Positions 67-16,124 of a stretch of 64,000 nucleotides of DNA are shown here, in pieces. The notes beneath the pieces were generated by a model. The model worked only from the letters and a program-made list of their open reading frames with translations. It did not search any database and was not told the DNA's origin. The stretch lies in assembly GCA_000165345.1 (NCBI GenBank), contig CM000430.1, forward strand, positions 544,001 through 608,000, in the 5' to 3' direction. Every line of letters begins with the position of its first letter. Position 1 is the stretch's first letter. A program made the position numbers and the translations under genes.

Positions 67-1359
67 ATGAGATCGAAAGGTAGTTCTATTAAAGAGAAAA
101 ATTCCGAATATACACCCAAGGATGATGGTGTATTGCTTCCAGAGAAAAGAAGCTTATTTAAAATATCTGATAATGGCGTTACAGTCCCTAGATTGGAGTT
201 GTTTTATGGGTATCTGAATATTCCATTGAGGTATATTTCACTTTTACTTCTTGCTTTGAAGGCAGTATGTGTAGTATTGTGTACAAGACTTAGTTTTAGA
301 TTTCCTGCAAAAGATGGACGTAATTATATTCCTTCAGTGGCAGTTGTTTGTTCAGAATTTATCAAACTAACAGTCTCGTTAGCCATGATTTTTATTACAA
401 CCGCAAAAAAAGATATTAGGGCTTTTCCAAAAGCACTATATTTGGAATTTGTGTCGGATAAGTTTGGTAACTTAATAGTTTTGATACCGGGGGTTCTATT
501 CCTTTTCCAAAATAACTTACTATATATTTCATTGAAAAGGCTTCCTGCAGCTCTTTATCAGGTCATGTATCAGCTGAAAATTCTTACAACTACATATTTT
601 AGCGTTCTAATTCTGAAGCGAAAACTTAGTTTAACTCGTTGGTTCGCATGTTTTTTGCTCATTTTTGGAGTTATAATGATCCCAAAGAAATCAAAACACT
701 CTTCTACAGAGCGTACTTCGGGGTTATCAGAGTTTATCATTGGTCTTTTTGCTGCTTTTACTTCTTCATTTACATCTGGGCTAGGGGCCGTAGTGCTTGA
801 AAAAGTACTTAAGGATACCGATGAACGCATTCACACAGGAAATGGTGAATTCCAGACTACAGTTTGGGGAAGAAATGTAATTCTTGCTTTAGTTGGAATA
901 ATTGGGGGAGTTCCATTAGCCTACTTTAGCTCCAAGGACCAAATAGCACAGTATGGAGTTTTTCAGGGTTTCTCTCCGTTCGTATTGTTGGTTATATGTT
1001 TGAATGCAGGAACAGGTTTCGTAGTAGTTGCAGTTTTAAAATACGCAGATGGAATCTTAAAGTGCTTCTGTAATGCACTTTCAATTGTATTAATTACGCT
1101 AATATCATGGCTATTTTTGGGAGACACAAAAATGACTCCTAGATTCGCGTTTGCAGCAACTATTGTTGTTTGCGCAGTGACAATTTACTCTTTAGACAAA
1201 GTAATTCCTCGGAAGTTTTATTCAACGGAATTGTTTAGTTCTAAACTTTCATCTAATAATACCGATACCTTTGATTCAGCTGAGAAAACTGAACAATTTA
1301 AAGGTCTAGAGAAAGATCCAGAAAATTCACTCTTAATTCAGCGAGATACGAAGACTTAA
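67..1359 (+). CDS. Nucleotide-sugar transporter (SLC35A / UDP-galactose-type transporter family), multi-pass membrane protein
   Basis: 430-aa ORF with ATG at 67. Multiple hydrophobic TM segments; conserved family block ...LFLFQNNLLYISLKRLPAALYQVMYQLKILTT...KRKLSLTRWFACFLLIFGV... recalled from nucleotide-sugar transporter family. Paralog of the next gene. Confidence 0.7.
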   Translation: MRSKGSSIKEKNSEYTPKDDGVLLPEKRSLFKISDNGVTVPRLELFYGYLNIPLRYISLLLLALKAVCVVLCTRLSFRFPAKDGRNYIPSVAVVCSEFIKLTVSLAMIFITTAKKDIRAFPKALYLEFVSDKFGNLIVLIPGVLFLFQNNLLYISLKRLPAALYQVMYQLKILTTTYFSVLILKRKLSLTRWFACFLLIFGVIMIPKKSKHSSTERTSGLSEFIIGLFAAFTSSFTSGLGAVVLEKVLKDTDERIHTGNGEFQTTVWGRNVILALVGIIGGVPLAYFSSKDQIAQYGVFQGFSPFVLLVICLNAGTGFVVVAVLKYADGILKCFCNALSIVLITLISWLFLGDTKMTPRFAFAATIVVCAVTIYSLDKVIPRKFYSTELFSSKLSSNNTDTFDSAEKTEQFKGLEKDPENSLLIQRDTKT

Positions 1360-1893: not shown

Positions 1894-3138
1894 ATGAAGG
1901 TTGAACAAAATGTGATAACAACTGAAGCAACCCGATTGCTAGAATGCGAAGCATTCAAAGAGAGAAAAATGTTTGAAATTTACTATTCCAACGGCCTTTA
2001 TTATTTGGCAATTTTCAAGGGAAGATATAACATTCAAATGAGATTTCTCACTCTAATTTTAATGTCGGTTCAGTGTATTTGCGTTGTATTATGCATGAAG
2101 TTGAGCGTTACTTATCCAGCAAGCGATGGAAAACAATACTTAACTCCAGTTGCTGTAGTTATGGTCGAAATTTTGAAATTACTTACTTCTCTGTTCATGA
2201 TTTTCCAGATTTCTGGTGGAAATTCGTTCAAGGAGTTTATTTATGCTTTAAAGTGCGAGTTTCTACATGATGTACGAGGAAATCTTCTAGTAGTTGTTCC
2301 AGGAATTTTATTCTTGTTCCAAAACAACCTTACATATATTGCAATTGAGAATCTCCCTGCTTCTATATACCAAGTAACTGCACAATTAAAGGTACTTACT
2401 ACTGCATTGTTCAGCGTTGTATTATTAAAAAGAAGTCTTAGCACTACTAGATGGTTTGCTTGTTTTTTGCTATTTGTTGGAGTATTATTGGTCCAAAAAA
2501 CCAATATTAGAAATAAAGGGAGTATTAATTCTTTCCAGCTCATGATTGGCTTTTTAGCATCAGTCACGTGCTCTATCACATCTGGTCTTGGATCTGTAAT
2601 TATCGAAAAGGTAGTAAAAGACCCGGATGACTCTAAGATTGTCTCTTCTGATATCGAAAACTCTACAAAACTAGATAATCTAATTGATGAAAGACCTAAC
2701 GATAGAGTTCAATATAAGTCTTCAGTTTGGGGTAGAAACGTCATTCTATCCCTTATTGGAATATTTGGAGGCACTCCTATCGCTTGGATTACATGTAAAG
2801 AAAAAATAATCAGAGATGGAGTTTTCCAGGGTTTCTCTTGGCTAACTATTTTAGTTATTTTTCTGAATGCGTACGGAGGTTTCATTGTAGTCGGCGTTCT
2901 TAAATACTCGGACAGTATTATGAAATGTTTTTTCAATGCTTTAACTATCGTTATCATTACCATATTGTCTTGGGCATTTATGGGTGATAATACGCCTTCG
3001 ATCAAGTTCTTCATTGCATCCACGATCGTAATTATAGCTATAAGCGTATACACTTTTAATAAAGTTTTCCCAGATTCGTTCTACACAAAGTTTTCAAGGC
3101 TCTTTAAATTCAAGAATAGAAATACAGAATCTCATTAA
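1894..3138 (+). CDS. Nucleotide-sugar transporter paralog (tandem duplicate of 67..1359)
   Basis: 414-aa ORF. Same conserved blocks as the upstream gene (GNLLVVVPGILFLFQNNLTYIAIENLPASIYQVTAQLKVLTT...TRWFACFLLFVGV). Same strand, 535-bp spacer. Confidence 0.7.
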   Translation: MKVEQNVITTEATRLLECEAFKERKMFEIYYSNGLYYLAIFKGRYNIQMRFLTLILMSVQCICVVLCMKLSVTYPASDGKQYLTPVAVVMVEILKLLTSLFMIFQISGGNSFKEFIYALKCEFLHDVRGNLLVVVPGILFLFQNNLTYIAIENLPASIYQVTAQLKVLTTALFSVVLLKRSLSTTRWFACFLLFVGVLLVQKTNIRNKGSINSFQLMIGFLASVTCSITSGLGSVIIEKVVKDPDDSKIVSSDIENSTKLDNLIDERPNDRVQYKSSVWGRNVILSLIGIFGGTPIAWITCKEKIIRDGVFQGFSWLTILVIFLNAYGGFIVVGVLKYSDSIMKCFFNALTIVIITILSWAFMGDNTPSIKFFIASTIVIIAISVYTFNKVFPDSFYTKFSRLFKFKNRNTESH

Positions 3139-3347: not shown

Positions 3348-6300
3348 TTACGTCCCAACATTTTCGTTGAGAGAGGATTCGGTTCTATTGGATGTAGTCT
3401 TCGAGGGATTAGGAGCCTTAATTTGCTCAAAATCTCTAAATTTGAAAATCACGGTTCTCAATGCTATGGAAATGATGACATTAAGCATTAAGAAAAAAAC
3501 ACACCAAAAGGTAAGTTCAATTTTCCAAAATTTAGGGAAAATATTGTTATTGTATTGCCCGTAAAATGGTGAAGAAAGTTTAATCCAGTTATCTGGGAGC
3601 GATCTTGAAGTTTGATCGTCACAGTTAATTCTCAGAATACAACCTAATCGAGACGGCTCCATCCAGATGCAAAACAAAATGAAAAAATTCATAGTAATAT
3701 TCCATATAATTAGAAGAATATTGGTTTTCATTGGAATAAGAGAAGATGAACGTAGCCAAATTGGCCATACTTGGTTGACTAATTGGAAAGAAATGTAACA
3801 CCAGGACGAAGCGGCTTCAATATTATCTTGTCTAATGTGCCAAAGGTAAACCGGAATAGTTAAATTGTACCTGAAACAACGTTCGATTCCATGCTTTGGG
3901 AGAACGAAGTGAACTAGTCTGTTAGAAATGACAAAAAAACCTAGTAAAGAAATGAGCAGAGATAGAAAACTTGCAGTATAAAAAGTGTGGAATCCAACAT
4001 GGCTCTTAATGTTATATATCTGTTTATTAATCAGTGCTGATGGGCTTTCATTGTCAACCAATAACATATATTTATCGGAATTCACATCAATAGCATAAGT
4101 ATTTAGGTTTTTAATTCTTGTATTGACGCAATCTGAGTTACAAGTCTCAGGATAATGGCTGCTCGTAATATCATGCGAAGGATGATTTATAGTCGTATTC
4201 ACATTCTTTATTTTATATTCTTTTGGTCTGGAAAATGAAAACAACAATAGTGGAAGTAAAGTACAAAAAATATCAATGAAAAGCCATGCCATAGCAGGTA
4301 TCATTGCTTGAGATTGCCATAAGAGAAAGGTTTTGCATGTAACGAAGAATATTCCAAGCAAAACTATATGTTGATACATTGATACAAATGCAAAAACAAC
4401 GCCTCGAGACTCTATTACTAGTCTACAAACAGAATGTAAACCATATGGGAAAATCTCTGAAATAAATGGAGCAACAAGGCCATTACATTTAATTGTTTCT
4501 GTTATTAAAAGACCTGAGTTTGCTTTCTGTAGTGCAATAATGTCATTTGGACCATCACCAACCATAAGTACAGTCATTCCTAGCCTTTCAAGTAGTTCAA
4601 CCGCCATAGATTTCAGTTCAGGAGTAAATCTGGCAAAAATGGCAGTATTATAAATGATTTTTGAAAATATAGATAATTCAATTAGCTCATCTGGAGCTTT
4701 GCGTTTGTAGCCAGCATACGTTTCCAAATTAAGGATATTAATAAATAGTTTGAAAGCATCCGATGATAGTGCAATTTGAAATTTATCTTGAATAATTTGT
4801 TGAGGTATAATGCCCGATAATGCACGAATTTTGTTTTTATTTTTCAAAGAAAATTTGACTTTTCTTTTTGAATTTTCAATTTCCCAAACTAAATTATTCT
4901 CCAGGTCAATGTAACAGGAAGCAAATCTATTAAAAATCATACCAAGTTCTTTTGCAACAACGATTGCTGAATTAATATTGTCTCCCGTAATAATAGGGCA
5001 GTGAAAATTACCATTCTTCAGCAGCTTGAGAACTAATTTTGCTTCTGGCCTTATAGGAGAATGTAGCTGGGCTAACCCAAGAGGAATAAAAGATGAGCTT
5101 AAGTGCTTATAGGAAAGAGTATTATTGCTAGAATTAGCTTGATCATTTACCACTTTATAACAGTATCCAAGGATGTATGAACCTGCGACTTGGTTCTCGA
5201 GTATATCATTAGACCAGTCTCTGAAACTAGTTCCATCACTACAATCGTCATAATTGGTTGTTAATTCCACAATCTTCTCTGCTGCACCTTTCATAAAGAG
5301 CATAGATGTAGAGCGAATACAATACAAGTTTGAAGAAAGTTCAGATTCAATCGAATACTTCTTTATAGCTACACTTTGAGATCTTAGTGTTTCATCAAAC
5401 GGATATCTTTTCGTTATCTCGACTGCATCACAAACAGCAGAAATATATTCAAGTGAATTTTTTGGGTAAACATTGTCAAGCTGTTGAATGTCAAAGCTTG
5501 CCCCGTAGTCTAAAATTAGATGAGATTCAAGTTCTATAACCCTCTCAAGGAAAGTCTTTCTATTACATAAGGGAATAATAAAAAGCCTTTCAGAGCTAAA
5601 AGTAAATACTTTATAGCCACAAAAACCTGAGTAGTTATACAAACATTGTTCTAGTTTAGACCCAGAAGGGCAGCTGAAGGAGTTCTTTCTTGTTAACTGT
5701 AGTGGCCCTGCCTTTTCAAATATTAAATTATTACATGTAGCCATTGCCAAATGCATTAGATGGTCTCTTGTATTATTTCTAATTGGGTAGATATGTACAT
5801 TATTAATTGAAAACGTAGGGACAGTTAAAGTACCTGTCTTATCAAAACATATTGTATCTACAAGGAGCAGCTGATTTAATTTTTTGGGATTTGTTGTTAG
5901 AATATGTTCACTGTTTAGATACTTGATTGCATTGTTAAAGTACAAAGACATGGAAGAAGTAGACCAAAAAGGAATGATATAAATTATCGTCGAAACAATG
6001 AAAAATATCGAGCCGATCTCAAAAGATAAAGTATATGAATCGGTTAAAGCAATAAAAGTTCCGTATATGAAACACAAAATCCAAAGAGGTTCTGGAGTAA
6101 AATTCCAATTTCTTTTAATGCTTTTGTAAAGATCGCAATGCCTACCTAATGATGAGATTGATTCTGAAGTAAAGTCACGTCTTGAGTTCGATGTTAAGAG
6201 AGGAGGCAATCCTTCAGTAAATCCATGTTCGTCATTGGCGTTAGAATGGCCTGAGGTAAATGTTCCATGAAGTGTAGCTGATCCTGTTCTTGTTACCATA

Positions 6301-7652
6301 GCTAGCGTTATGCCAGTTGATGAAACTTCCAAAACTTGGCTGCCAGCATAAAGATGCCTAGAATTAGATAGCACGTCGCAGGCTAAGGAAAATTCAGAGG
6401 GAGCAATTTGAATTCCACCTGTCTTACATTGTGGAGTCGCTTCACCAGTAAGACATGATTCATCTACCACAACATTCCCATTAAGCAGTAATAAGTCAGC
6501 AGGGATCCGCATGGCCTTGTCTATGAAAATGACTGTACCAGGAAAAAGTTCTTTTGACAAAACAAAGGAGCTACCGGCATTTGAATATGAATGGGGCTTG
6601 TATGGCCCTGTAAGATATCTATAAATATCCCAGTCATGTTGAGTAAGCACTTTTTCTGTTTCAATATAATTACGTCTGGACTTAATAATTGACCAAGAAA
6701 TTGTATAAAATGTAATTATGGACCAACAAAGAGGCCAGACAATAAATGAATAAAAAAGCGCATCTAATAATGTCATAATACGAATAATGTTTAAAACTGA
6801 GGTAAACTCAGAAAAAATGAGTTTCCATAGTGAAAGAGGGTATGAGCCTAAGCTGTTAGTTCCAACAAATTCAAGAATTTTATCTTTATCATGGTTTCCA
6901 AAGGATTCAATAACTTGGTCCCTTACCTTTAGAAAGTCGGTATTTTCTACAGGAAAACTTTCAGCGGCTTTTCTGGACAAAATTTCTCTGGACCAAGTGA
7001 ATTCATTTTCATACCACCAGTATTTCTCTCTACGGTATTCAAAGTATCTATCAGTCTCTGTACCAAAAAAGTTGATTGGCTCGCTTCTTTTAATGATACG
7101 ACAGAGCTTAGTAACTGGAAATTTTTCCAAAACACGAATATAATAATTACCAAATAATTTGCACCATATGTTATTTTTTGAAAATCTACAAGATCCTGGG
7201 AAGCTGATAGAGATAAATTCGCAGTCAGAAAGATCCTCAGGTACTAGGAATATTTGTTCAAAAGATCCATATTTTGCTTTCAGTAATTTTAAAAAGACAA
7301 TACAAAATATAACAGTCAATAAACTTCTAGCATAAATTTTCACAGCTTCATGCCAATTAAACGAAGACTCAAATGTTTGTGTATACGATTTGTAAAACAT
7401 AATTGCTACTACAGAAACATGAAAAACGAATGGGTAAAAAATCAAAAAAAATATCTCAATTTGTCTGAGGAATTCTCCAAAAAAAGATTTTTTTAAACCA
7501 ACTATTTGGAATAACCCTGTTTTACCTTTGTTTACATGCTTTGTTCTAATTTGATAACAAATAGCCAACATTAAGTGAAACAACAAAACAGTTGAAATGA
7601 TAAAAAATCCACATTTTTGTAGATATAGTAACCACTCAAAGATATTATCCAT
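3348..7652 (-). CDS. P5-type cation-transporting P-type ATPase (Spf1/Ypk9/ATP13A-like), divergent
   Basis: 1434-aa ORF, ATG at 7652. Carries TGE (DESCLTGEATP), phosphorylation motif ICFDKTGTLT, TGDN, the hinge GDGPNDIIALQKANSGL and a downstream ...APF... segment recalled as typical of P5 ATPases. The long N-terminal extension also fits P5B. Confidence 0.7.
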   Translation of the reverse strand: MDNIFEWLLYLQKCGFFIISTVLLFHLMLAICYQIRTKHVNKGKTGLFQIVGLKKSFFGEFLRQIEIFFLIFYPFVFHVSVVAIMFYKSYTQTFESSFNWHEAVKIYARSLLTVIFCIVFLKLLKAKYGSFEQIFLVPEDLSDCEFISISFPGSCRFSKNNIWCKLFGNYYIRVLEKFPVTKLCRIIKRSEPINFFGTETDRYFEYRREKYWWYENEFTWSREILSRKAAESFPVENTDFLKVRDQVIESFGNHDKDKILEFVGTNSLGSYPLSLWKLIFSEFTSVLNIIRIMTLLDALFYSFIVWPLCWSIITFYTISWSIIKSRRNYIETEKVLTQHDWDIYRYLTGPYKPHSYSNAGSSFVLSKELFPGTVIFIDKAMRIPADLLLLNGNVVVDESCLTGEATPQCKTGGIQIAPSEFSLACDVLSNSRHLYAGSQVLEVSSTGITLAMVTRTGSATLHGTFTSGHSNANDEHGFTEGLPPLLTSNSRRDFTSESISSLGRHCDLYKSIKRNWNFTPEPLWILCFIYGTFIALTDSYTLSFEIGSIFFIVSTIIYIIPFWSTSSMSLYFNNAIKYLNSEHILTTNPKKLNQLLLVDTICFDKTGTLTVPTFSINNVHIYPIRNNTRDHLMHLAMATCNNLIFEKAGPLQLTRKNSFSCPSGSKLEQCLYNYSGFCGYKVFTFSSERLFIIPLCNRKTFLERVIELESHLILDYGASFDIQQLDNVYPKNSLEYISAVCDAVEITKRYPFDETLRSQSVAIKKYSIESELSSNLYCIRSTSMLFMKGAAEKIVELTTNYDDCSDGTSFRDWSNDILENQVAGSYILGYCYKVVNDQANSSNNTLSYKHLSSSFIPLGLAQLHSPIRPEAKLVLKLLKNGNFHCPIITGDNINSAIVVAKELGMIFNRFASCYIDLENNLVWEIENSKRKVKFSLKNKNKIRALSGIIPQQIIQDKFQIALSSDAFKLFINILNLETYAGYKRKAPDELIELSIFSKIIYNTAIFARFTPELKSMAVELLERLGMTVLMVGDGPNDIIALQKANSGLLITETIKCNGLVAPFISEIFPYGLHSVCRLVIESRGVVFAFVSMYQHIVLLGIFFVTCKTFLLWQSQAMIPAMAWLFIDIFCTLLPLLLFSFSRPKEYKIKNVNTTINHPSHDITSSHYPETCNSDCVNTRIKNLNTYAIDVNSDKYMLLVDNESPSALINKQIYNIKSHVGFHTFYTASFLSLLISLLGFFVISNRLVHFVLPKHGIERCFRYNLTIPVYLWHIRQDNIEAASSWCYISFQLVNQVWPIWLRSSSLIPMKTNILLIIWNITMNFFILFCIWMEPSRLGCILRINCDDQTSRSLPDNWIKLSSPFYGQYNNNIFPKFWKIELTFWCVFFLMLNVIISIALRTVIFKFRDFEQIKAPNPSKTTSNRTESSLNENVGT

Positions 7653-8240
7653 TTGTTATAAAACTACTCCCATAGTTAAAATATCTTGAAGGGGTTTTTG
7701 AACTTATACTATGTCTTAAGTAGTGTAAGCCGTTTCCAATAATTGAATAAAACTTGATATCGTTAAATAAAAAATAAGTATTCTTTAAAAATTATGGACA
7801 GAACTTTTTTTAAATAATAAAAGTATAATATTGAATATTAAAAAGTCAAAATTTCCATCTAATTTACTCTTAAGATGAATGATATTAATTAAAAGTTGTT
7901 CTAAATACAAGTATTTTCCAATTTGTATAAAAAATTGCGATTGCAACGATAATAAAGCTGGCGCCAAGCTGCTTATCCATAAAAAATTATTAAATGTAAA
8001 TATTGATACATAAGTTACCAGTTTAATGCTATTTTAAGTAAAACTTTTACATATTTGTAATTCTAAAGGTTTTTCTAAAAGAAAATTTGGTTTCAGAGAT
8101 TTGTCTGGACAGCTATTTATGTATTCTCATAGATATTTGCGCAGCTAAATACATATTACTTAATTTAGGTTAAGTAAATTAGAATACCATCATATTTAAG
8201 ATCTAACTAGAAAGTGGTTTTCGAGTCTTCTACACTGATT

Positions 8241-8852
8241 ATGGAGGACTATTCACGCGAATATAGTGAAGTTTTATTACAGTTGAAAGAATTACAAGAT
8301 TCAGAGGCATTTTTAGAACCAGTAAATTGGAAGAAGCTAGGACTTGATGATTATCCGGATATTGTAAAAAATCCAATGGATTTAAAAACTATTGGAAAGA
8401 AAATTAAGGCGAACTTTTATACAAAAGCTGAACAATTCTGGGCAGATATAGATTTAATTTGGCACAATTGTCAACTTTATAATCACGAATCTTCGGAAGT
8501 TTACCAACAGAGTATTAGGATGCAGGATGCGGCGAATAATCTAAGAGATATGTTATTTCCCTCAATTTCTAAGAAAATTAACAAGAGAAAGTACGAGTAC
8601 GATTCTCATACTGAATCAGAAGATGAAGACTCATCAAATATCTTAAAAAAAACATTATTATGCCAGAGGATGTCTAGACTTTCTCCAGAGCTTCTCGCTT
8701 TAGTAGTTAGGCATATTTATTCTCAAGATCAACAAATAATTCAGCATAGTGGCGAACATAAATTTTCGATAGACATAGATTTCATGAACAACCAGTTATT
8801 CTCTACTACTTCAGCGCTCACTAAGAGACTCTTAAGATTGCAATTATCCTAA
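8241..8852 (+). CDS. Small bromodomain-containing protein
   Basis: The ORF-track start at 8214 is GTG; the first ATG is at 8241 (MEDYSREY...). Bromodomain signature present: PVNWKKLGLDDYPDIVKNPMDLKTI...FWADIDLIWHNCQLYNHESSEVY, with the acetyl-lysine-binding Asn in YNHE. Confidence 0.6.
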   Translation: MEDYSREYSEVLLQLKELQDSEAFLEPVNWKKLGLDDYPDIVKNPMDLKTIGKKIKANFYTKAEQFWADIDLIWHNCQLYNHESSEVYQQSIRMQDAANNLRDMLFPSISKKINKRKYEYDSHTESEDEDSSNILKKTLLCQRMSRLSPELLALVVRHIYSQDQQIIQHSGEHKFSIDIDFMNNQLFSTTSALTKRLLRLQLS

Positions 8853-9405: not shown

Positions 9406-10893
9406 ATGGTAGCTGTTGTATCAAGCGACTCTCACAAAGAGAGGCAGTCAAATCGTCCCAGGTTTATTACTCCTGTCTCAGCGGCTGAAAAAAGTATTCC
9501 TGTAGTTCCAGCTCCTGATGAAAAAACTTACAAAGAGACGACAGAGGCGATTCGACAAGTCCTCAATGAATGGAATATAAAGATAAGAGGACTAACAAAG
9601 ATGATAAATGATAGAAGCGTGGGGAGGGAAGCTTTCGATAGAAAAAAAAGTGAGTTCCAGGCAAAGCTAGATGAATATCAGAAATGTATTGAGAACCTTG
9701 AGGAGGAAAGGAAACTATGTATGGCTAAGATAAATGAAAAGTCTAAGGAGGGCCGTGAGATGAAGGCTAACCTTCAAAGCCTTAAAAAATCTGTAGGGTA
9801 TAAGTCAGAGGAGGAGATTGAGGCAAAAATTAAAGAGATTGAATATCAGTTGGTTACTTCCACGTTATCTCTCAAGGATGAGAAGAAGTTACTCTCACAA
9901 ATTTCTCAACTTAAACAAAGCCGTCCAATAGTTGGGAGGTTTGCACATATGGATGCAAGTGCCTCATCATTTGAGGAAAACTCAATCATCCCATTAAGAG
10001 CCAAGATTAGTTCAATTATAGAAGATCTCAACAAATTTCGCAAGCAAAAGAAGGAGGTATTTGATAAATTGCGTGCCCTTACAGCAGACAGACAAAAGGC
10101 TTTAGAACCACTTAGATCGCTTTATGATGAAAGGAGCGCAATGCAAAGTAAGGTAGAGGAACAACATACGAAACTTCGTCAATTGAGAGAGGAATACGAT
10201 CGTGAAATGAAGTTGTTTATGGAGTATCAAAGTAAATTGAGAGCTTTAAGATCAGAAAGAGTTAAAGAGGAAAAAATCTTAAGAGACCTCTATAGACAAC
10301 GTGATGATTTAAGGCTAGCATTAGAGCAAGAGGACGATCCTCCAATTTCTACTGAAATGCAACTTGTTCAACAGTCTCTAAGCTATATCCAGAAGCTTAT
10401 GGAATCCCATGGCGTTATTGACAAGACTTCACAATCCACAAAGGACAAAGCTACCTTAAGTGATGAGAGTAAGAATCTCTCTGCTTCTGCTATCAAAGGA
10501 CGTGACAAAGATGAGTCAGTACTCTTGCCAAAGAATCAGAGGAACGAAGAATATCTAATTCCTCCTAAGGGAAAGAAAAATAAGAGAAGACAGAACTCAT
10601 CTTCAAATAACTCTAGCTCAGCTCACAAGTCTCTAGTTGTAGACTTTGCCACAATTTCAACCTTTGAGAAAGTTGACTTGGATGTACCTATGACTACTGA
10701 TGACCTTCCTAAAGCTTATTCACTTTTATTGGAAAAACATCTTAAACTTAAAAGTGAATTTGACGAGAAATTTGCAAATCGCGAGAAGAGGAAGGAGGAG
10801 ATACTCAAGAAACTCGGTGATATAGAATTAAAAATCACTGAGGCTGGAGGGATTCTTGAAGACGCAGTTTCCTCTCCAAAGATTGAAGAATAA
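9406..10893 (+). CDS. BFR1: Bfr1-like coiled-coil protein (nuclear segregation / mRNP-associated protein family)
   Basis: 495 aa, K/E-rich coiled coil. Segmental similarity recalled to S. cerevisiae Bfr1, e.g. SLKDEKKLLSQISQLKQS and the C-terminal block VDFATISTFEKVDLDVPMTTDDL...LLLEKHLKLKSE. Confidence 0.5.
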   Translation: MVAVVSSDSHKERQSNRPRFITPVSAAEKSIPVVPAPDEKTYKETTEAIRQVLNEWNIKIRGLTKMINDRSVGREAFDRKKSEFQAKLDEYQKCIENLEEERKLCMAKINEKSKEGREMKANLQSLKKSVGYKSEEEIEAKIKEIEYQLVTSTLSLKDEKKLLSQISQLKQSRPIVGRFAHMDASASSFEENSIIPLRAKISSIIEDLNKFRKQKKEVFDKLRALTADRQKALEPLRSLYDERSAMQSKVEEQHTKLRQLREEYDREMKLFMEYQSKLRALRSERVKEEKILRDLYRQRDDLRLALEQEDDPPISTEMQLVQQSLSYIQKLMESHGVIDKTSQSTKDKATLSDESKNLSASAIKGRDKDESVLLPKNQRNEEYLIPPKGKKNKRRQNSSSNNSSSAHKSLVVDFATISTFEKVDLDVPMTTDDLPKAYSLLLEKHLKLKSEFDEKFANREKRKEEILKKLGDIELKITEAGGILEDAVSSPKIEE

Positions 10894-13112: not shown

Positions 13113-16100
13113 ATGTCAAACGTACTGACATGCAAAGCATTAAAGATATTATGCGGAGAAGATATACGTTACTTTGAGCTTGCAGAAGTTGCATACTTGG
13201 CTCGAATGAAGAAACTTTACGTATGCTTAGGAAGACATTCGATATATTTACTGAAAAGGAATTTAAGGAAAGTAATTACTGGAGGAAAGCTAAAGTATTC
13301 TCAAATTGAGGGGATTTATGAAGATATAAGCAAAGATACCCGGTTTTTAATTCTTCTTGATAATGAAAGGGATGAGAGATGGGTAGATGACAAACTTATT
13401 ATCAACTGTTTAAATAGGCACGTGCTTTGTAATTTTCTAGAGATGGCCTGGAAAGCTGATCATGCATTTAGAACAGGAAAGTATTATGACTTTCCTAGGT
13501 TCGGAATCAACTTGAATGAAATTAGAAATGAATTAAATATTTCTAAGAGTAAAAATTCGAGTATTGATAAAATTAAATCAATTGCAGTTTGGGGAATGAA
13601 TTCAAGACAAAAAAACATTAAGGGACGGTATGAAAAGTGCAAATTTACAGGGATATTGGACGAAAAAACACTGCTAGCAATTCAAAAACAATTAAATTTA
13701 TTAGAAGAAGGATACACGACTACAATATTTCCATTTGCTAAAATAGAAGAGTTTCAAGACTATAGAAAATATATCTTCGATGGCTATTACTTCTTTGCAA
13801 AGCAAGGTTTTGAAAATAAAGCAACTCAATCACACAACTCACAAACAGGTTCATATGTATCATATAACGGCGTTGAAATTAATATTAATGTACATCCACA
13901 GATATTTTTAAACCAAAAGAAACCAAATACTAATGATACTCAAACCAGAGAAAATAAAGGGGCAGAAACAAAAGGTTACTCAAATATTGGAAGCAACCTG
14001 TATAATGTTGCTCAAGAATATGTTAGGTTTCTCTCCAATATGTCAACCGATAAAACTTACTCTGTATATCTTAATGGCCAATACAACAAAAAAATGAACC
14101 TCTCTGATGACATTTCAACCTGGTCTTGTTGGGAGATTTTTATTAAAACATCAAGAATGAGCATTGTATGCATAATCATGAGGAGATGCTATATCCCTCC
14201 AACTTTAGACTCATATCAAGATATTTCAGTAACTTATACTTGCTCATATAAGGATATGAAGTATTTCAATTTAACTGATAGAGATTTGTTGAGAGAGTGT
14301 AGACTTTCGGCGGATTCGATTTCACCAATTTCTCAACATCACACTTTATACACAGAATTTATTCAGTCCCAATTGGATACTTTGCTATTCGACGAATTTT
14401 CATATAGTTGGATATCTACAAATATAAAGTTACATCCAGCATTCAAGGTAGGAGCAAGATCTTTTCTCAAGTCAATCCTTAAAATGTTGGATAAAGCAAA
14501 TATTCTAGCAGATAGTGAACTAATAGAAGAAATTGATCTATTGGAAAAAAGCGGTTCAAGTAGATACGACCAAGAGAACGAAACAAAAGTTGAAGTATTT
14601 GAAGATCCTATGGCATGCATTCATGAAATGCTTTCACAAATTTCAGGGGTAGACAAATTCTCTAGAAGTATTATTGAAAGACAAAAATTACATTTTTTTG
14701 AGCTTAGGCTTGCTAGGTATTTATCTTACTGCGTTGATGGAGGCCTACTTGGAGCAAAATTTATTATCGAAGACCTTGTATCCTCTGTTGGGATGGCAAA
14801 TAGGAATGTTGATAGTAAAATAAGGCAAGTTTTGGATTATTTGTTACATGTCAGATCGAAAGATATGTCTACGGATTATTGTCAATTAAAGCTTGTAAAT
14901 CTCCTTCAGAATCCGAGATTTGTAAGAGATTATTGCTTTGTGCCTTCTGTAATGGCAAGATTTGTAAATAGCGGATATTGTGCAAGACTTATCCCGGCTG
15001 GGAAGGAAACATTATATATAGAATTTCTAATGAATCTTTTAACGCTACCTATAAAAAATAACTTTGGGCAAAGATCGCAATTAAGAATATCTATTCTTCA
15101 ACAAGTGTTGCACGCAACAGGAGACTCTAAAAAAAGGGATTATTATATTCAGATGGTCCCTCTACTTGTTGAGATTTTTTCTGGAAATGAGTTGGACGGC
15201 GATAACACTGGTTCAAAGTATGCTGGGGCTGCTCTACTTAATCTATGCTTCTCAAACGATATATTAAAAAGTGAGCTTGTAAAAGCAGGGATATCTAGCG
15301 CAATAGTTAAGAAGCTTCAGAAAAGAGACGACCTTCAACTGACAAAAATATGCCTCTCCCTCGTGGTAAATATTTCTAAAGACCCTTCACATCGACAAAC
15401 CTTGATAGCGGAGGGGATATTACCAATCATTGCTGACTCTCTCCATGAGATTCTTGAAGATTTTAGGCCATATAATCAAGATTTAGTTTTGCAGAAGAAC
15501 AAAATCCATGGACAATTTGGAATTCATTCAAAACAAAATAGCGACTGGGATGTGCTACCTATTATTTTAGGCGTAATTGGCCAATTGAGCAATGAAAACG
15601 ATATAAAACACATGTTCATTTCTAATTGGTGCGTGCTTGACTATATTTTGTACCTTTTCCACAACCTTGAAGTTTATGTGGGAAGTAATAACGACATAAT
15701 TTGTAAAATAATTTTTTGTATAAAACAGCTTTGTAATTCGAGTTGGATTGTGCAACTTCGTGTTGGTAAACATTGTATTCCAACTCTTATTGAAATAATT
15801 TCCACACCATTAAATAAAAAAGAAAGGAGAGAGGCTTCAACTATGAAATTTATTCAGTACTATTCTTATTGGGTCCCTTTTCATACTATATCAGAAAATA
15901 GGGATTCTTCTATTTTTCTTAGCGGAATAAATGGAGATGTAATTTTTCATTCGTTATTATTGCTAGAGACTCTTTCTTATTATCATCCAAACTGTTTGGA
16001 AATGATTTCATTCGGTATTGAAAATGCACTTGATCTGTGCTTGGAGTCTTATTGCATAGACACTATAGTAATAAAACTAAACTACCTAAAAGACGTAGTA

Positions 16101-16124
16101 AAGAAAGTATCGCTCAGGATTTAG
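13113..16124 (+). CDS. Hypothetical protein with C-terminal armadillo/HEAT-like repeats
   Basis: 1003-aa uninterrupted ORF with ATG. Repetitive helical leucine-rich segments in the C-terminal half (e.g. ...GAALLNLCFSNDILKSELVKAGISSAIVKKLQ...LSLVVNISKDPSHRQTLIAEGILPIIADSL). No confident family assignment. Confidence 0.5.
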   Translation: MSNVLTCKALKILCGEDIRYFELAEVAYLARMKKLYVCLGRHSIYLLKRNLRKVITGGKLKYSQIEGIYEDISKDTRFLILLDNERDERWVDDKLIINCLNRHVLCNFLEMAWKADHAFRTGKYYDFPRFGINLNEIRNELNISKSKNSSIDKIKSIAVWGMNSRQKNIKGRYEKCKFTGILDEKTLLAIQKQLNLLEEGYTTTIFPFAKIEEFQDYRKYIFDGYYFFAKQGFENKATQSHNSQTGSYVSYNGVEININVHPQIFLNQKKPNTNDTQTRENKGAETKGYSNIGSNLYNVAQEYVRFLSNMSTDKTYSVYLNGQYNKKMNLSDDISTWSCWEIFIKTSRMSIVCIIMRRCYIPPTLDSYQDISVTYTCSYKDMKYFNLTDRDLLRECRLSADSISPISQHHTLYTEFIQSQLDTLLFDEFSYSWISTNIKLHPAFKVGARSFLKSILKMLDKANILADSELIEEIDLLEKSGSSRYDQENETKVEVFEDPMACIHEMLSQISGVDKFSRSIIERQKLHFFELRLARYLSYCVDGGLLGAKFIIEDLVSSVGMANRNVDSKIRQVLDYLLHVRSKDMSTDYCQLKLVNLLQNPRFVRDYCFVPSVMARFVNSGYCARLIPAGKETLYIEFLMNLLTLPIKNNFGQRSQLRISILQQVLHATGDSKKRDYYIQMVPLLVEIFSGNELDGDNTGSKYAGAALLNLCFSNDILKSELVKAGISSAIVKKLQKRDDLQLTKICLSLVVNISKDPSHRQTLIAEGILPIIADSLHEILEDFRPYNQDLVLQKNKIHGQFGIHSKQNSDWDVLPIILGVIGQLSNENDIKHMFISNWCVLDYILYLFHNLEVYVGSNNDIICKIIFCIKQLCNSSWIVQLRVGKHCIPTLIEIISTPLNKKERREASTMKFIQYYSYWVPFHTISENRDSSIFLSGINGDVIFHSLLLLETLSYYHPNCLEMISFGIENALDLCLESYCIDTIVIKLNYLKDVVKKVSLRI

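What the first reader, a model, noticed from the sequence alone, without database searches (positions are those of the whole stretch)
3348..7652. P5-type ATPase in which the TM4 PP(E/A)LP motif appears replaced (IIPFWST)
The P5 assignment rests on CFDKTGTLT, the GDGPNDIIALQKANSGL hinge and the downstream APF segment. Aligning back from DKTGTLT by eye places IIYIIPFWSTSSMSL where Spf1/Ypk9 have VVPPELP/PPALP. That motif helps define the substrate pocket in P5A/P5B pumps. A linker roughly 45 aa longer sits between TM4 and the phosphorylation site. Together these suggest an atypical P5 pump with altered substrate handling, or a non-transporting derivative.
Basis: inference. Interest (0 to 1): 0.55.

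Follow-up and report, generated by a model that had tools for sequence, protein, structure and literature searches.

The report
Cryptosporidium P5C-type pump, tryptophan M4 motif
This intact Cryptosporidium parvum gene encodes a P5-type membrane pump in which the usual PP(E/A)LP motif really is replaced by PFWST, but a tryptophan at that position is shared by a whole group of parasite pumps (the recently named P5C clade), so it is not a one-off oddity.

Summary
Window 3348-7652 (-) is one intact 1434-aa ORF, identical to C. parvum XP_626470.1, which databases label "possible MgtA".

- **P5 assignment:** it is a P5-type ATPase by profile, sequence and predicted fold.
- **M4 register:** HMMER and MAFFT both place PFWST (res 561-565) column-for-column on PPALP/PPELP. 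An AF2 model (pLDDT 82) breaks the M4 helix at I560-P561.
- **Linker claim:** the "45 aa longer linker" is wrong. P561 to D604 is 43 residues, as in P5A and P5B.
- **The motif is a clade signature:** the nearest relatives carry P-[IVLMF]-W-x-[PST]. They are three other Cryptosporidium paralogue groups plus Toxoplasma, Neospora, Plasmodium, piroplasms, gregarines and Chromera.
- **Other shared features:** the protein has luminal inserts (RQDNIEA; C..RINC..FP..WK) that P5A and P5B lack.
- **Family:** this matches the "P5C" clade of Arnold et al. 2025 (TgFLP12, an apicoplast fatty-acid exporter), for which Cryptosporidium-specific duplications were reported.
- **Activity:** catalytic motifs are intact and dN/dS against C. 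hominis is 0.21, so a dead derivative is unlikely.

The most likely reading is an active pump for a hydrophobic cargo, though the cargo is inferred. Interest is modest.

The parts
3348..7652 (-). Complete CDS, 1434 aa. It is a P5-type (P5C-like) P-type ATPase, identical to C. parvum XP_626470.1/EAK88734.1.
   Evidence: ORF list. Zero differences from P0241. Pfam, NCBIfam and PDB matches.
7266..7622 (-). N-terminal region with three hydrophobic segments (res 11-36, 61-88, 102-129), upstream of the core pump.
   Evidence: Kyte-Doolittle scan. This region was not in the AF2 model, which starts at residue 250.
6984..7049 (-). P5 N-terminal-domain motif RYFEYRREKYWWYENEFTWSRE (res 202-223).
   Evidence: Aligns with the R-Y-F-x-...-R-Y-x-Y...F segment of P5A, P5B and P5C sequences.
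6678..6821 (-). M1-M2 hairpin (res ~278-325).
   Evidence: Hydropathy. AF2 helices at model 26-92. Alignment.
6432..6452 (-). A-domain dephosphorylation loop LTGEATP, with TGEA in place of TGES.
   Evidence: Gastric-species orthologues have SGES. TGEA also occurs in P2 and P5A sequences of the same alignment, so it is not unusual.
6093..6257 (-). Poorly conserved insertion between the A domain and M3 (res ~466-520). This is the real source of extra length upstream of M4.
   Evidence: TGE-to-M4-Pro distance is 159 aa against about 128-154 in the P5B and P5A sequences examined. pLDDT is below 50 at model 222-247.
5910..6017 (-). Transmembrane helix M4 (res 546-581): M4a, an unwound point at I560-P561, then M4b.
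   Evidence: AF2 model has H297-310, a break, then H313-332. HMMER and MAFFT alignments.
5958..5972 (-). M4 motif PFWST (res 561-565), occupying the columns of PPELP (P5A) and PPALP (P5B). W563 sits where P5A has E/D and P5B has A/V.
   Evidence: PFW is invariant in 10 Cryptosporidium orthologues.
5823..5843 (-). Phosphorylation motif DKTGTLT (D604), 43 residues after P561.
5277..5294 (-). N-domain nucleotide-binding motif MKGAAE (K788).
5154..5186 (-). N-domain segment AGSYILGYCYK. It has Tyr where P5A and P5B consensus has Arg (G-x-R-V-L-A). The Tyr is invariant in the alveolate relatives.
   Evidence: Consensus of A4 against A5; Y1191 is invariant in A5.
4977..4991 (-). P-domain motif ITGDN.
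4458..4559 (-). Hinge GDGPNDIIALQKANSGL followed by the P5-typical VAPFIS.
4266..4343 (-). M5-M6 segment. It has the M5 Lys (K1107, shared with the alveolate P5C-like clade and absent in P5A and P5B) and the M6 WLFIDIF with D1127 kept. The second acidic residue used by P5B polyamine pumps (GD) is replaced by PA.
   Evidence: Alignment. Role of the M6 aspartates in ATP13A2 from PMC12655044.
4008..4220 (-). Low-complexity, poorly conserved loop between M6 and M7 (res ~1145-1215).
   Evidence: pLDDT below 50 at model 901-963. Variable in the orthologue alignment.
3813..3833 (-). M7-M8 luminal loop motif RQDNIEA, corresponding to the clade motif WW.R.DNYEA.
   Evidence: Shared with the alveolate and non-alveolate P5C-like sequences and absent in P5A and P5B.
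3522..3641 (-). M9-M10 luminal insert CILRINCDDQTSRS ... NNNIFPKFWK (two Cys, C-x4-C).
   Evidence: Present in this protein, the other Cryptosporidium paralogues, the alveolate relatives and some fungal, diatom and ichthyosporean sequences. P5A and P5B have a gap there.

Best explanation
The gene is Cryptosporidium parvum XP_626470.1. It encodes a catalytically competent P5-type ATPase that is neither P5A (ER helix dislocase) nor canonical P5B (polyamine pump). It is a fast-evolving, genus-restricted paralogue of the third P5 lineage, which Arnold et al. 2025 called P5C. That lineage includes the Toxoplasma apicoplast fatty-acid exporter TgFLP12 and Plasmodium ATPase3.

Shown here:
- The pump has the full Post-Albers machinery: D604 phosphorylation site, TGE loop, KGA, TGDN and GDGxND.
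- It has a P5 fold.
- M4 is unwound at the universally conserved P561.
- The gene is under purifying selection.
- The M4 motif P-Phi-W-x-(P/S/T) is the shared signature of the alveolate branch of this lineage. Non-alveolate relatives have (S/P)-P-L-L-P.
- At the position where P5A has Glu/Asp and P5B has Ala/Val, this lineage therefore has a large hydrophobic residue (Trp or Leu).

Inferred:
- M4 forms the gate and floor of the cargo site in all P-type pumps.
- The aromatic F562-W563 pair, together with the loss of one of the two M6 acidic residues that P5B pumps use for polyamines, points to a hydrophobic or amphipathic cargo. Fatty-acid-like or lipid-like cargo is the best guess, by analogy with TgFLP12.
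- That cargo would be moved across an endomembrane of a parasite that has no apicoplast.
- The intestinal Cryptosporidium species additionally lost the distal proline (PFWSP in C. muris and C. andersoni, PFWST in C. parvum). Piroplasms did the same (PVWTS).
For: Identity: 0 differences from C. parvum P0241.

P5 family:
- TIGR01657 scores 249 bits against 100 bits or less for other specific subfamilies.
- Best PDB sequence hits are P5B and P5A.
- The AF2 model (pLDDT 82) has its top 32 Foldseek hits all in P5A or P5B, with TM up to 0.76.

Nearest relatives:
- A profile search of 1.8 billion representatives finds Cryptosporidium orthologues at 840-2044 bits, then drops to 250 bits or less.
- Those next hits are Theileria, Babesia, Chromera, Neospora, Plasmodium, gregarines and three other Cryptosporidium paralogue groups.
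- All but one of these groups carry P-[IVLM]-W at the M4 columns; paralogue group CRYc has PLYLT, with Tyr in place of Trp.

Clade profiles:
- The query scores 374 bits (alveolate relatives) and 380 bits (xPLLP group).
- It scores 272 bits against P5B, 155 against P5A and 142 against P2.

NJ tree:
- This protein groups with two Cryptosporidium paralogue groups at 99% bootstrap.
- Adding the fourth group gives 93%, and adding the alveolate relatives gives 67%.
- P5A plus P5B group separately at 92%.

Shared inserts and link to TgFLP12:
- RQDNIEA, C..RINC and FP..WK are absent in P5A and P5B.
- The T. gondii relative P0257 is 2014 aa (219.7 kDa) with PVWTP and CLMRINC. This matches the ~220 kDa reported for TgFLP12.
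- The published P5C clade includes Cryptosporidium duplications.

Purifying selection:
- dN/dS against C. hominis is 0.21 overall, 0.045 over M3-M4-P and 0.10 over hinge-M5-M6.
- PFW and all catalytic motifs are invariant across orthologues down to ~37-40% identity, except GNGPND in C. felis.
Against: - No cargo, localisation or activity data exist for this protein. The hydrophobic-cargo step is an analogy plus residue chemistry.
- I could not obtain TgFLP12 or PF3D7_0504000 by locus tag. The link to 'P5C' rests on size, taxonomy and the paper's description.
- The tree is distance-based NJ, all Cryptosporidium branches are long and AT-biased, and support for joining the alveolate clade is only 67%.
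- The paper reports two Cryptosporidium-specific duplications (three copies) whereas I see four paralogue groups. I cannot say which of them are in their tree.
- TIGR01657's curated cutoff (618 bits) is not reached.
- The clade has Tyr instead of the N-domain Arg used for ATP binding in other pumps, so kinetics may be unusual.
- Cryptosporidium lacks the apicoplast and FASII that give TgFLP12 its role.
Confidence: 0.68

Rival explanations
1. It is a highly diverged P5B polyamine (or cation) transporter in which drift in a fast-evolving parasite genome altered M4 but the cargo class is unchanged.
For: - The best single PDB sequence and fold hits include the P5B structures ATP13A2 and CtYpk9.
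- The M6 Asp of the I-D-L/I motif is kept as D1127.
- Wiser classifies Plasmodium ATPase1 and ATPase3, which are relatives, as P5B.
- Some database records call this protein 'ATP13A4'.
Against: - The defining PPALP motif is absent, and this absence is conserved clade-wide rather than drifting.
- The second M6 acidic residue is lost.
- The P5B profile scores about 100 bits lower than the P5C-like profiles.
- P5B sequences lack the luminal inserts.
- Wiser himself concludes that the Plasmodium relatives are unlikely to be polyamine transporters.
Confidence: 0.12
2. It is a non-transporting derivative (pseudo-pump, regulator or scaffold) that kept the fold but lost coupled transport.
For: - M4 lacks two of the three prolines.
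- The N-domain Arg is replaced by Tyr.
- The C. felis orthologue has GNGPND instead of GDGPND.
- It sits on a long branch.
Against: - D604, TGE, KGA, TGDN, P..K and GDGxND are intact across the genus, apart from GNGPND in C. felis.
- The universally conserved M4 proline is kept and the helix is predicted to unwind there.
- dN/dS is 0.045 around M4 and the phosphorylation site.
- A P-Phi-W-type M4 (PVWTP) is found in the T. gondii relative P0257, which matches the ~220 kDa size reported for the functionally essential TgFLP12.
- P4 flippases also work with a single M4 proline (PISL; my own knowledge).
Confidence: 0.07
3. It is Cryptosporidium's diverged P5A orthologue, that is, the ER transmembrane-helix dislocase.
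For: - P5A is described as present in essentially all eukaryotes.
- No canonical Cryptosporidium P5A appeared among the 150 best hits.
- P5A structures are among the top fold hits.
- A hydrophobic M4 could suit a helix cargo.
Against: - The invariant P5A motif PPELP(M/I)E (PMC11541931) is absent.
- The hinge is GDGPNDIIALQ, not GDGTNDVGALK.
- The P5A profile scores only 155 bits, about the same as P2 outgroups.
- The tree separates it from P5A.
- The top-150 list is ranked by similarity to this protein, so a canonical P5A could simply rank lower. Its absence there is not evidence.
Confidence: 0.05
4. It is a Mg2+ importer of the MgtA/P3B type, as several database records name it.
For: Source names 'possible MgtA' and 'putative magnesium-transporting ATPase'.
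Against: - TIGR01524 (P3B Mg) scores 64 bits against a cutoff of 611, whereas the P5 model scores 249 bits.
- All nearest sequence and fold neighbours are P5.
Confidence: 0.02

Closest known systems
P5C-ATPases (Arnold et al., Nat Commun 2025, PMC12217143): TgFLP12 (TGGT1_289070), PF3D7_0504000/ATPase3, and Cryptosporidium copies
   Same: - It shares the P5 core.
- Its nearest relatives are the apicomplexan and chromerid members.
- It shares the M4 P-Phi-W signature, the M5 Lys, the G-x-Y N-domain variant, and the M7-M8 and M9-M10 luminal inserts.
- The paper itself reports Cryptosporidium-specific duplications.
   Different: - It is the most diverged branch, with a drop from 840 to 250 bits outside its own orthologues.
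- It has F instead of I/V/L/M before the Trp.
- The distal proline is lost in intestinal species (PFWST).
- The M4-to-DKTG spacing is 43 aa rather than 44.
- The acidic or polar residue before M6 (PE/SE/SQ in the other apicomplexan, chromerid and gregarine relatives) is Ala.
- The host organism has no apicoplast, so the TgFLP12 role cannot be transferred directly.
- The M4 signature is not discussed in the paper: the word 'motif' has no hit in its text.
P5B ATPases (ATP13A2-5, Ypk9, CtYpk9): lysosomal or vacuolar polyamine transporters
   Same: - Overall fold, with Foldseek TM up to 0.76.
- Best phmmer PDB hit is 7op1/7op5.
- The hinge GDGxND...PF(T/I)S, the M6 I-D motif and the identical M4-to-Asp spacing.
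   Different: - The conserved PPALP (PMC10654040) is replaced by PFWST.
- One M6 Asp is lost.
- Extra luminal inserts are present.
- The profile score is about 100 bits lower than for P5C-like profiles.
P5A ATPases (Spf1, ATP13A1, CtSpf1): ER transmembrane-helix dislocases
   Same: P5 fold and a cargo site that accommodates a hydrophobic cargo (the substrate-contacting residues listed for Spf1 are non-polar).
   Different: - It lacks the invariant PPELP(M/I)E, including both cleft glutamates.
- The hinge sequence differs.
- The profile score is low, at 155 bits.
P4 lipid flippases (M4 motif PISL)
   Same: This is a functional analogy only: a single conserved M4 proline followed by bulky hydrophobic residues, in pumps that move lipids (my own knowledge, not tested here).
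   Different: - There is no sequence affinity. No P4 model or structure appears among the best hits.
- The spacing to DKTGT is the canonical 43 aa.
- No Cdc50-type partner was examined.

Membership tests
P-type (E1-E2, HAD-IC) ATPase superfamily | DKTGT phosphorylation site, A-domain TGE loop, TGDN and GDGxND P-domain motifs | tested here: met
   D604 in CFDKTGTLT, LTGEATP, ITGDN and GDGPND are all present and conserved in orthologues. Pfam PF00122 and PF00702 score above cutoff.
P-type (E1-E2, HAD-IC) ATPase superfamily | M4 helix unwound at a conserved proline about 43 residues before the phosphorylated Asp | tested here: met
   P561 to D604 is 43 residues. The AF2 helix breaks at I560-P561.
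P5 (type V) ATPases | Best profile and structure matches are P5; P5-typical hinge extension ...(A/S)PF(T/I)S | tested here: met
   TIGR01657 is the best specific model at 249 bits. The top 32 PDB fold hits are all P5. VAPFIS lies at 1060-1065.
P5 (type V) ATPases | Reaches the curated NCBIfam cutoff of TIGR01657 (618 bits) | tested here: not met
   It scores 249 bits. That model is named for ATP13A2-type P5B pumps, so this shortfall says more about P5B membership than about P5 as a whole.
P5A (Spf1/ATP13A1) | Invariant M4 motif PPELP(M/I)E (PMC11541931) | tested here: not met
   PFWSTSS occupies those columns.
P5A (Spf1/ATP13A1) | Closer to P5A than to other P5 groups by profile or tree | tested here: not met
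   The P5A profile scores 155 bits against 374-380 bits for P5C-like profiles. The tree separates them.
P5B (ATP13A2/Ypk9) | Conserved PPALP in M4 (PMC10654040, PMC10082790) | tested here: not met
   PFWST.
P5B (ATP13A2/Ypk9) | Pair of M6 aspartates used for polyamine binding | tested here: not met
   Only the I-D Asp is kept (D1127). The G-D position is P-A. The role of these residues is taken from PMC12655044.
P5C (Arnold et al. 2025) | Phylogenetic clustering with TgFLP12 and PF3D7_0504000-type sequences, apart from P5A and P5B (the clade is defined by phylogeny only) | tested here: met
   - The NJ tree gives 93-99% bootstrap with the other Cryptosporidium paralogues and 67% with the alveolate relatives.
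- Profile scores agree.
- Shared inserts and the M4 signature agree.
- Caveat: the reference sequences were identified indirectly, by organism, size and the paper's description, not by locus tag.
P5C (Arnold et al. 2025) | Fatty-acid export activity, or apicoplast or rhoptry localisation as for the Toxoplasma members | not testable with these tools
   There are no functional data. The paper describes Cryptosporidium as devoid of an apicoplast.
MgtA / P3B Mg2+-ATPase (database label) | Match to TIGR01524 at its cutoff (611 bits) | tested here: not met
   64 bits.

The most novel reading that the evidence does not exclude
Alveolate P5C pumps use a Trp at the M4 kink (P-Phi-W-x-P) as a hydrophobic gate, making them primary-active transporters of fatty acids or lipids. 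This Cryptosporidium-only paralogue (PFWST, distal proline lost, M6 acidic residue lost) would then be a specialised lipid or fatty-acid pump of a parasite that lacks an apicoplast and depends heavily on host lipids. It might act at a secretory organelle or the host-parasite interface, and it has no human counterpart.
Probability: 0.25. Interest if true: 0.6.

Novelty: new member of a known kind. Interest (0 to 1): 0.36.

Why it matters
**Annotation.** C. parvum XP_626470.1 and its orthologues are variously labelled MgtA, Mg2+-ATPase, ATP13A4 or HAD hydrolase. They should be read as P5C-type pumps.

**A sequence-level diagnostic.** P5C was defined only by phylogeny. This work adds recognisable features:
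- M4 P-Phi-W-x-(P/S/T) in alveolates and (S/P)PLLP elsewhere.
- A C..RINC luminal insert, a DNYEA loop and an M5 Lys.

I did not find these stated in the searchable literature.

**Cargo logic.** P5A has an acidic residue at the key M4 position, P5B a small one, and P5C a large hydrophobic one. This fits the fatty-acid cargo proposed for TgFLP12 and suggests testable point mutants.

**Parasite biology.** Cryptosporidium has expanded this lineage to about four paralogues despite having no apicoplast. These parasite-specific pumps are plausible drug targets. No function has been demonstrated here.

Tried and rejected
- **First AlphaFold2 run.** A 5-sequence, Cryptosporidium-only alignment gave pLDDT 33 and was unusable.
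- **115-sequence alignment.** It was too large for the predictor. An 84-sequence alignment worked.
- **Ungapped dN/dS against chipmunk genotype I.** This is invalid beyond about residue 640, because compensating indels put the two sequences out of register. Only the C. hominis comparison, and the chipmunk segments before residue 620, are used.
- **Literature searches.** Searches for PVWTP, PIWAP, PFWST and PVWTS found nothing relevant. A search for a cgd2 locus tag with 'MgtA' found nothing.
- **Arnold et al. paper.** Its supplementary files are not held and the text gives no Cryptosporidium accessions. I could not confirm that this exact gene is in their tree.
- **TGEA instead of TGES as a sign of inactivity.** Rejected. 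Gastric-species orthologues have SGES, and TGEA occurs in other P2 and P5A sequences in the alignment.
- **Two Cryptosporidium papers mentioning P-type ATPases.** They concern other genes.
- **P4-flippase membership.** Considered because of the single-proline M4, and rejected for lack of any sequence or fold affinity.

Full report
**What is there.** Window 3348-7652 on the minus strand is a single uninterrupted ORF of 1434 codons. The window has about 30-38% G+C and is densely packed with long ORFs. The protein is identical, with 0 differences, to Cryptosporidium parvum XP_626470.1/EAK88734.1, which is named 'possible MgtA, cation transport ATPase, signal peptide, 12 transmembrane domains'. 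It is 97% identical to the C. hominis orthologue. The window is therefore C. parvum DNA. The same gene order is seen on other contigs: two nucleotide-sugar transporters, this gene, then a bromodomain gene.

**Checking the observation.**
- CFDKTGTLT, with D604.
- GDGPNDIIALQKANSGL, at residues 1032-1048.
- VAPFIS, at residues 1060-1065.

The by-eye register for M4 was correct.
- phmmer aligns residues 556-622 without gaps to residues 632-698 of the P5B structure CtYpk9. This puts IIPFWST on VVPPALP.
- A MAFFT alignment of 71 P5 and outgroup sequences puts P-F-W-S-T in exactly the five columns of PPALP and PPELP.
- An AlphaFold2 model built with an 84-sequence alignment (pLDDT 82, pTM 0.83) has the M4 helix interrupted at I560-P561.

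The claim of a linker about 45 aa longer between M4 and the phosphorylation site is wrong.
- The proline-to-aspartate distance is 43 residues, as in every P5A and P5B sequence I examined.
- The extra length lies upstream, between the A domain and M3 (res ~466-520), in a poorly conserved, low-confidence segment.

**Which family.** The P5 assignment is solid.
- TIGR01657 (P-ATPase-V) scores 249 bits, E = 8e-74. The next specific subfamily scores 100 bits and the Mg2+-ATPase model scores 64 bits.
- The best PDB sequence hits are P5B and P5A.
- The 32 best Foldseek hits of the model are all P5A or P5B structures.

It fails the defining M4 motifs of both classical subfamilies. These are the invariant PPELP(M/I)E of P5A (PMC11541931) and the conserved PPALP of P5B (PMC10654040; PMC10082790).

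**The nearest relatives explain the motif.** I searched 1.8 billion cluster representatives with a profile of the Cryptosporidium orthologues.
- Orthologues were found throughout the genus, including C. andersoni and C. muris at 840 bits.
- Scores then dropped sharply to 250 bits or less.
- Those next-best proteins come from Theileria, Babesia, Chromera, Neospora, Plasmodium cynomolgi, Cardiosporidium and the gregarine-like taxa Ancora and Digyalum.
- They also include three further Cryptosporidium paralogue groups, one of which is annotated 'P-type ATPase 3'.

All but one of these groups have P-[IVLM]-W-x-[PST] at the M4 columns: PIWAP, PMWAP, PLWAP, PVWTP, PIWVP, PVWTS and so on.
- The orthologues of this gene have PFWST (intestinal species), PFWAT (C. 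bovis) and PFWSP (C. muris, C. andersoni).
- One Cryptosporidium paralogue group has PLYLT.
- A further set of weaker relatives comes from a fungus (Smittium), a diatom, an oomycete (Lagenidium), Amoebidium and others. These have (S/P/N/H/T)-P-L-L-P.

The Trp is therefore a lineage signature and not a lesion of this gene. At the position where P5A has E/D and P5B has A/V, this lineage has W or L.

**Independent support for the grouping.**
- *Clade profiles.* The query scores 374 bits against the alveolate relatives and 380 bits against the xPLLP group. It scores 340 bits against two Cryptosporidium paralogue groups, 272 against P5B, 155 against P5A and 142 against P2.
- *NJ tree (956 columns, 100 bootstraps).* This family joins two Cryptosporidium paralogue groups at 99%. 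It joins the fourth group at 93% and the alveolate relatives at 67%. P5A and P5B group together at 92%.
- *Shared features that P5A and P5B lack.* These are an M7-M8 loop motif (WW.R.DNYEA, here RQDNIEA) and an M9-M10 luminal insert with two cysteines (C..RINC.D..SR ... NN.FP..WK). There is also a Lys in M5 (K1107) and Tyr in place of the N-domain Arg in G-x-R-V-L.

**Link to the literature.** Arnold et al. (Nat Commun 2025, PMC12217143) defined a third P5 clade, 'P5C'.
- It is present in some fungi, mosses, diatoms, oomycetes and alveolates.
- It contains TgFLP12, an apicoplast outer-membrane protein needed for export of short fatty acids, and PF3D7_0504000.
- Two duplications are described as specific to Cryptosporidium.

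The taxon range matches my xPLLP and alveolate groups. A T. gondii relative found here is 2014 aa (219.7 kDa), with PVWTP and CLMRINC. That agrees with the ~220 kDa given for TgFLP12. Wiser (PMC12655044) treats Plasmodium ATPase1 and ATPase3 as divergent P5B pumps that are unlikely to carry polyamines, and notes that ATPase3 orthologues occur throughout Apicomplexa.

I could not fetch the named reference genes by locus tag. The paper's supplements are not held. The identification with 'P5C' is therefore well supported but indirect. I also count four Cryptosporidium paralogue groups, whereas the paper's two duplications imply three.

**Is it functional?** The evidence says yes.
- Every catalytic motif is intact and invariant across orthologues down to ~37-40% identity. 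The one exception is the C. felis orthologue, which has GNGPND in the hinge.
- TGEA instead of TGES is not unusual. Gastric orthologues have SGES, and other pumps in the alignment have TGEA.
- Against C. hominis, dS is 0.063, dN is 0.013 and dN/dS is 0.21.
- dN/dS is 0.045 over M3-M4-P and 0.10 over hinge-M5-M6.

**Mechanism.** What is shown: a P5-fold pump with complete Post-Albers chemistry and an M4 unwound at the universal proline. The rest is inferred.
- In P5B the PPALP segment acts as the gate between the two sides of the membrane (PMC10082790).
- In P5A the PPELP(M/I)E glutamates charge the cargo cleft.
- Replacing these with Phe-Trp argues for a hydrophobic or amphipathic cargo, as does losing one of the two M6 acidic residues used for polyamines.
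- This fits the fatty-acid role proposed for TgFLP12.
- Cryptosporidium has no apicoplast, so the membrane and the physiological role remain open.

**Verdict.** The anomaly is explained by membership in a recently described P5 subfamily. What may be new is the explicit sequence signature of that subfamily, together with the derived state of this paralogue (loss of the distal proline and loss of an M6 acidic residue). Interest is modest.

Noticed in passing
window 67-1359 (+) and 1894-3138 (+): Two adjacent paralogous nucleotide-sugar transporter genes (PF04142, E = 1e-73 and 2e-69) lie in tandem immediately downstream of the ATPase gene (beyond its 3' end, on the opposite strand). The same arrangement is seen in C. 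hominis and chipmunk genotype I contigs.
   Followed up: partly
window 8214-8852 (+): A small bromodomain protein (PF00439, E = 2e-23) lies upstream of the ATPase. The ORF lister starts it at GTG, so the true start codon may differ.
   Followed up: no
P0007 (C. felis orthologue), hinge motif: The C. felis orthologue has GNGPND instead of GDGPND, so the first hinge Asp (Mg2+-coordinating in other pumps) is Asn. This could be a real lineage change or a sequencing or annotation error.
   Followed up: no
P0069/P0217 (C. andersoni, C. muris XP_002142438.1): A fourth Cryptosporidium P5C-like paralogue group has an even more derived M4 (VVYPLYLT, with Tyr instead of Trp). No intestinal-species member of this group appeared among the hits I looked at.
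   Followed up: partly
window 5154-5186 (-) and alignment A5: The alveolate P5C-like pumps, including this one, have an invariant Tyr (G-x-Y-V/I-L) where P5A, P5B and other P-type ATPases have the nucleotide-binding Arg (G-x-R-V-L-A). I found no explanation.
   Followed up: partly
cluster of P0001: Public records for this one gene carry conflicting names (MgtA, Mg2+-ATPase, ATP13A4, HAD-like hydrolase, hypothetical). Several gene models are truncated: 530 aa in C. tyzzeri, 1273 aa in C. hominis TU502, and 1350-1407 aa in others.
   Followed up: no
window 24001-26000: There is a strong local strand-composition dip (GC skew -0.21, AT skew -0.27) inside the 1349-aa SMC-family gene at 22716-26765 (-). 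It probably reflects coiled-coil codon composition.
   Followed up: no
window 9406-10893 (+) and 13113-16124 (+): Two long ORFs (495 and 1003 aa) have no Pfam match at E <= 0.001. The first carries DUF7121 in precomputed annotations of the same contig.
   Followed up: no
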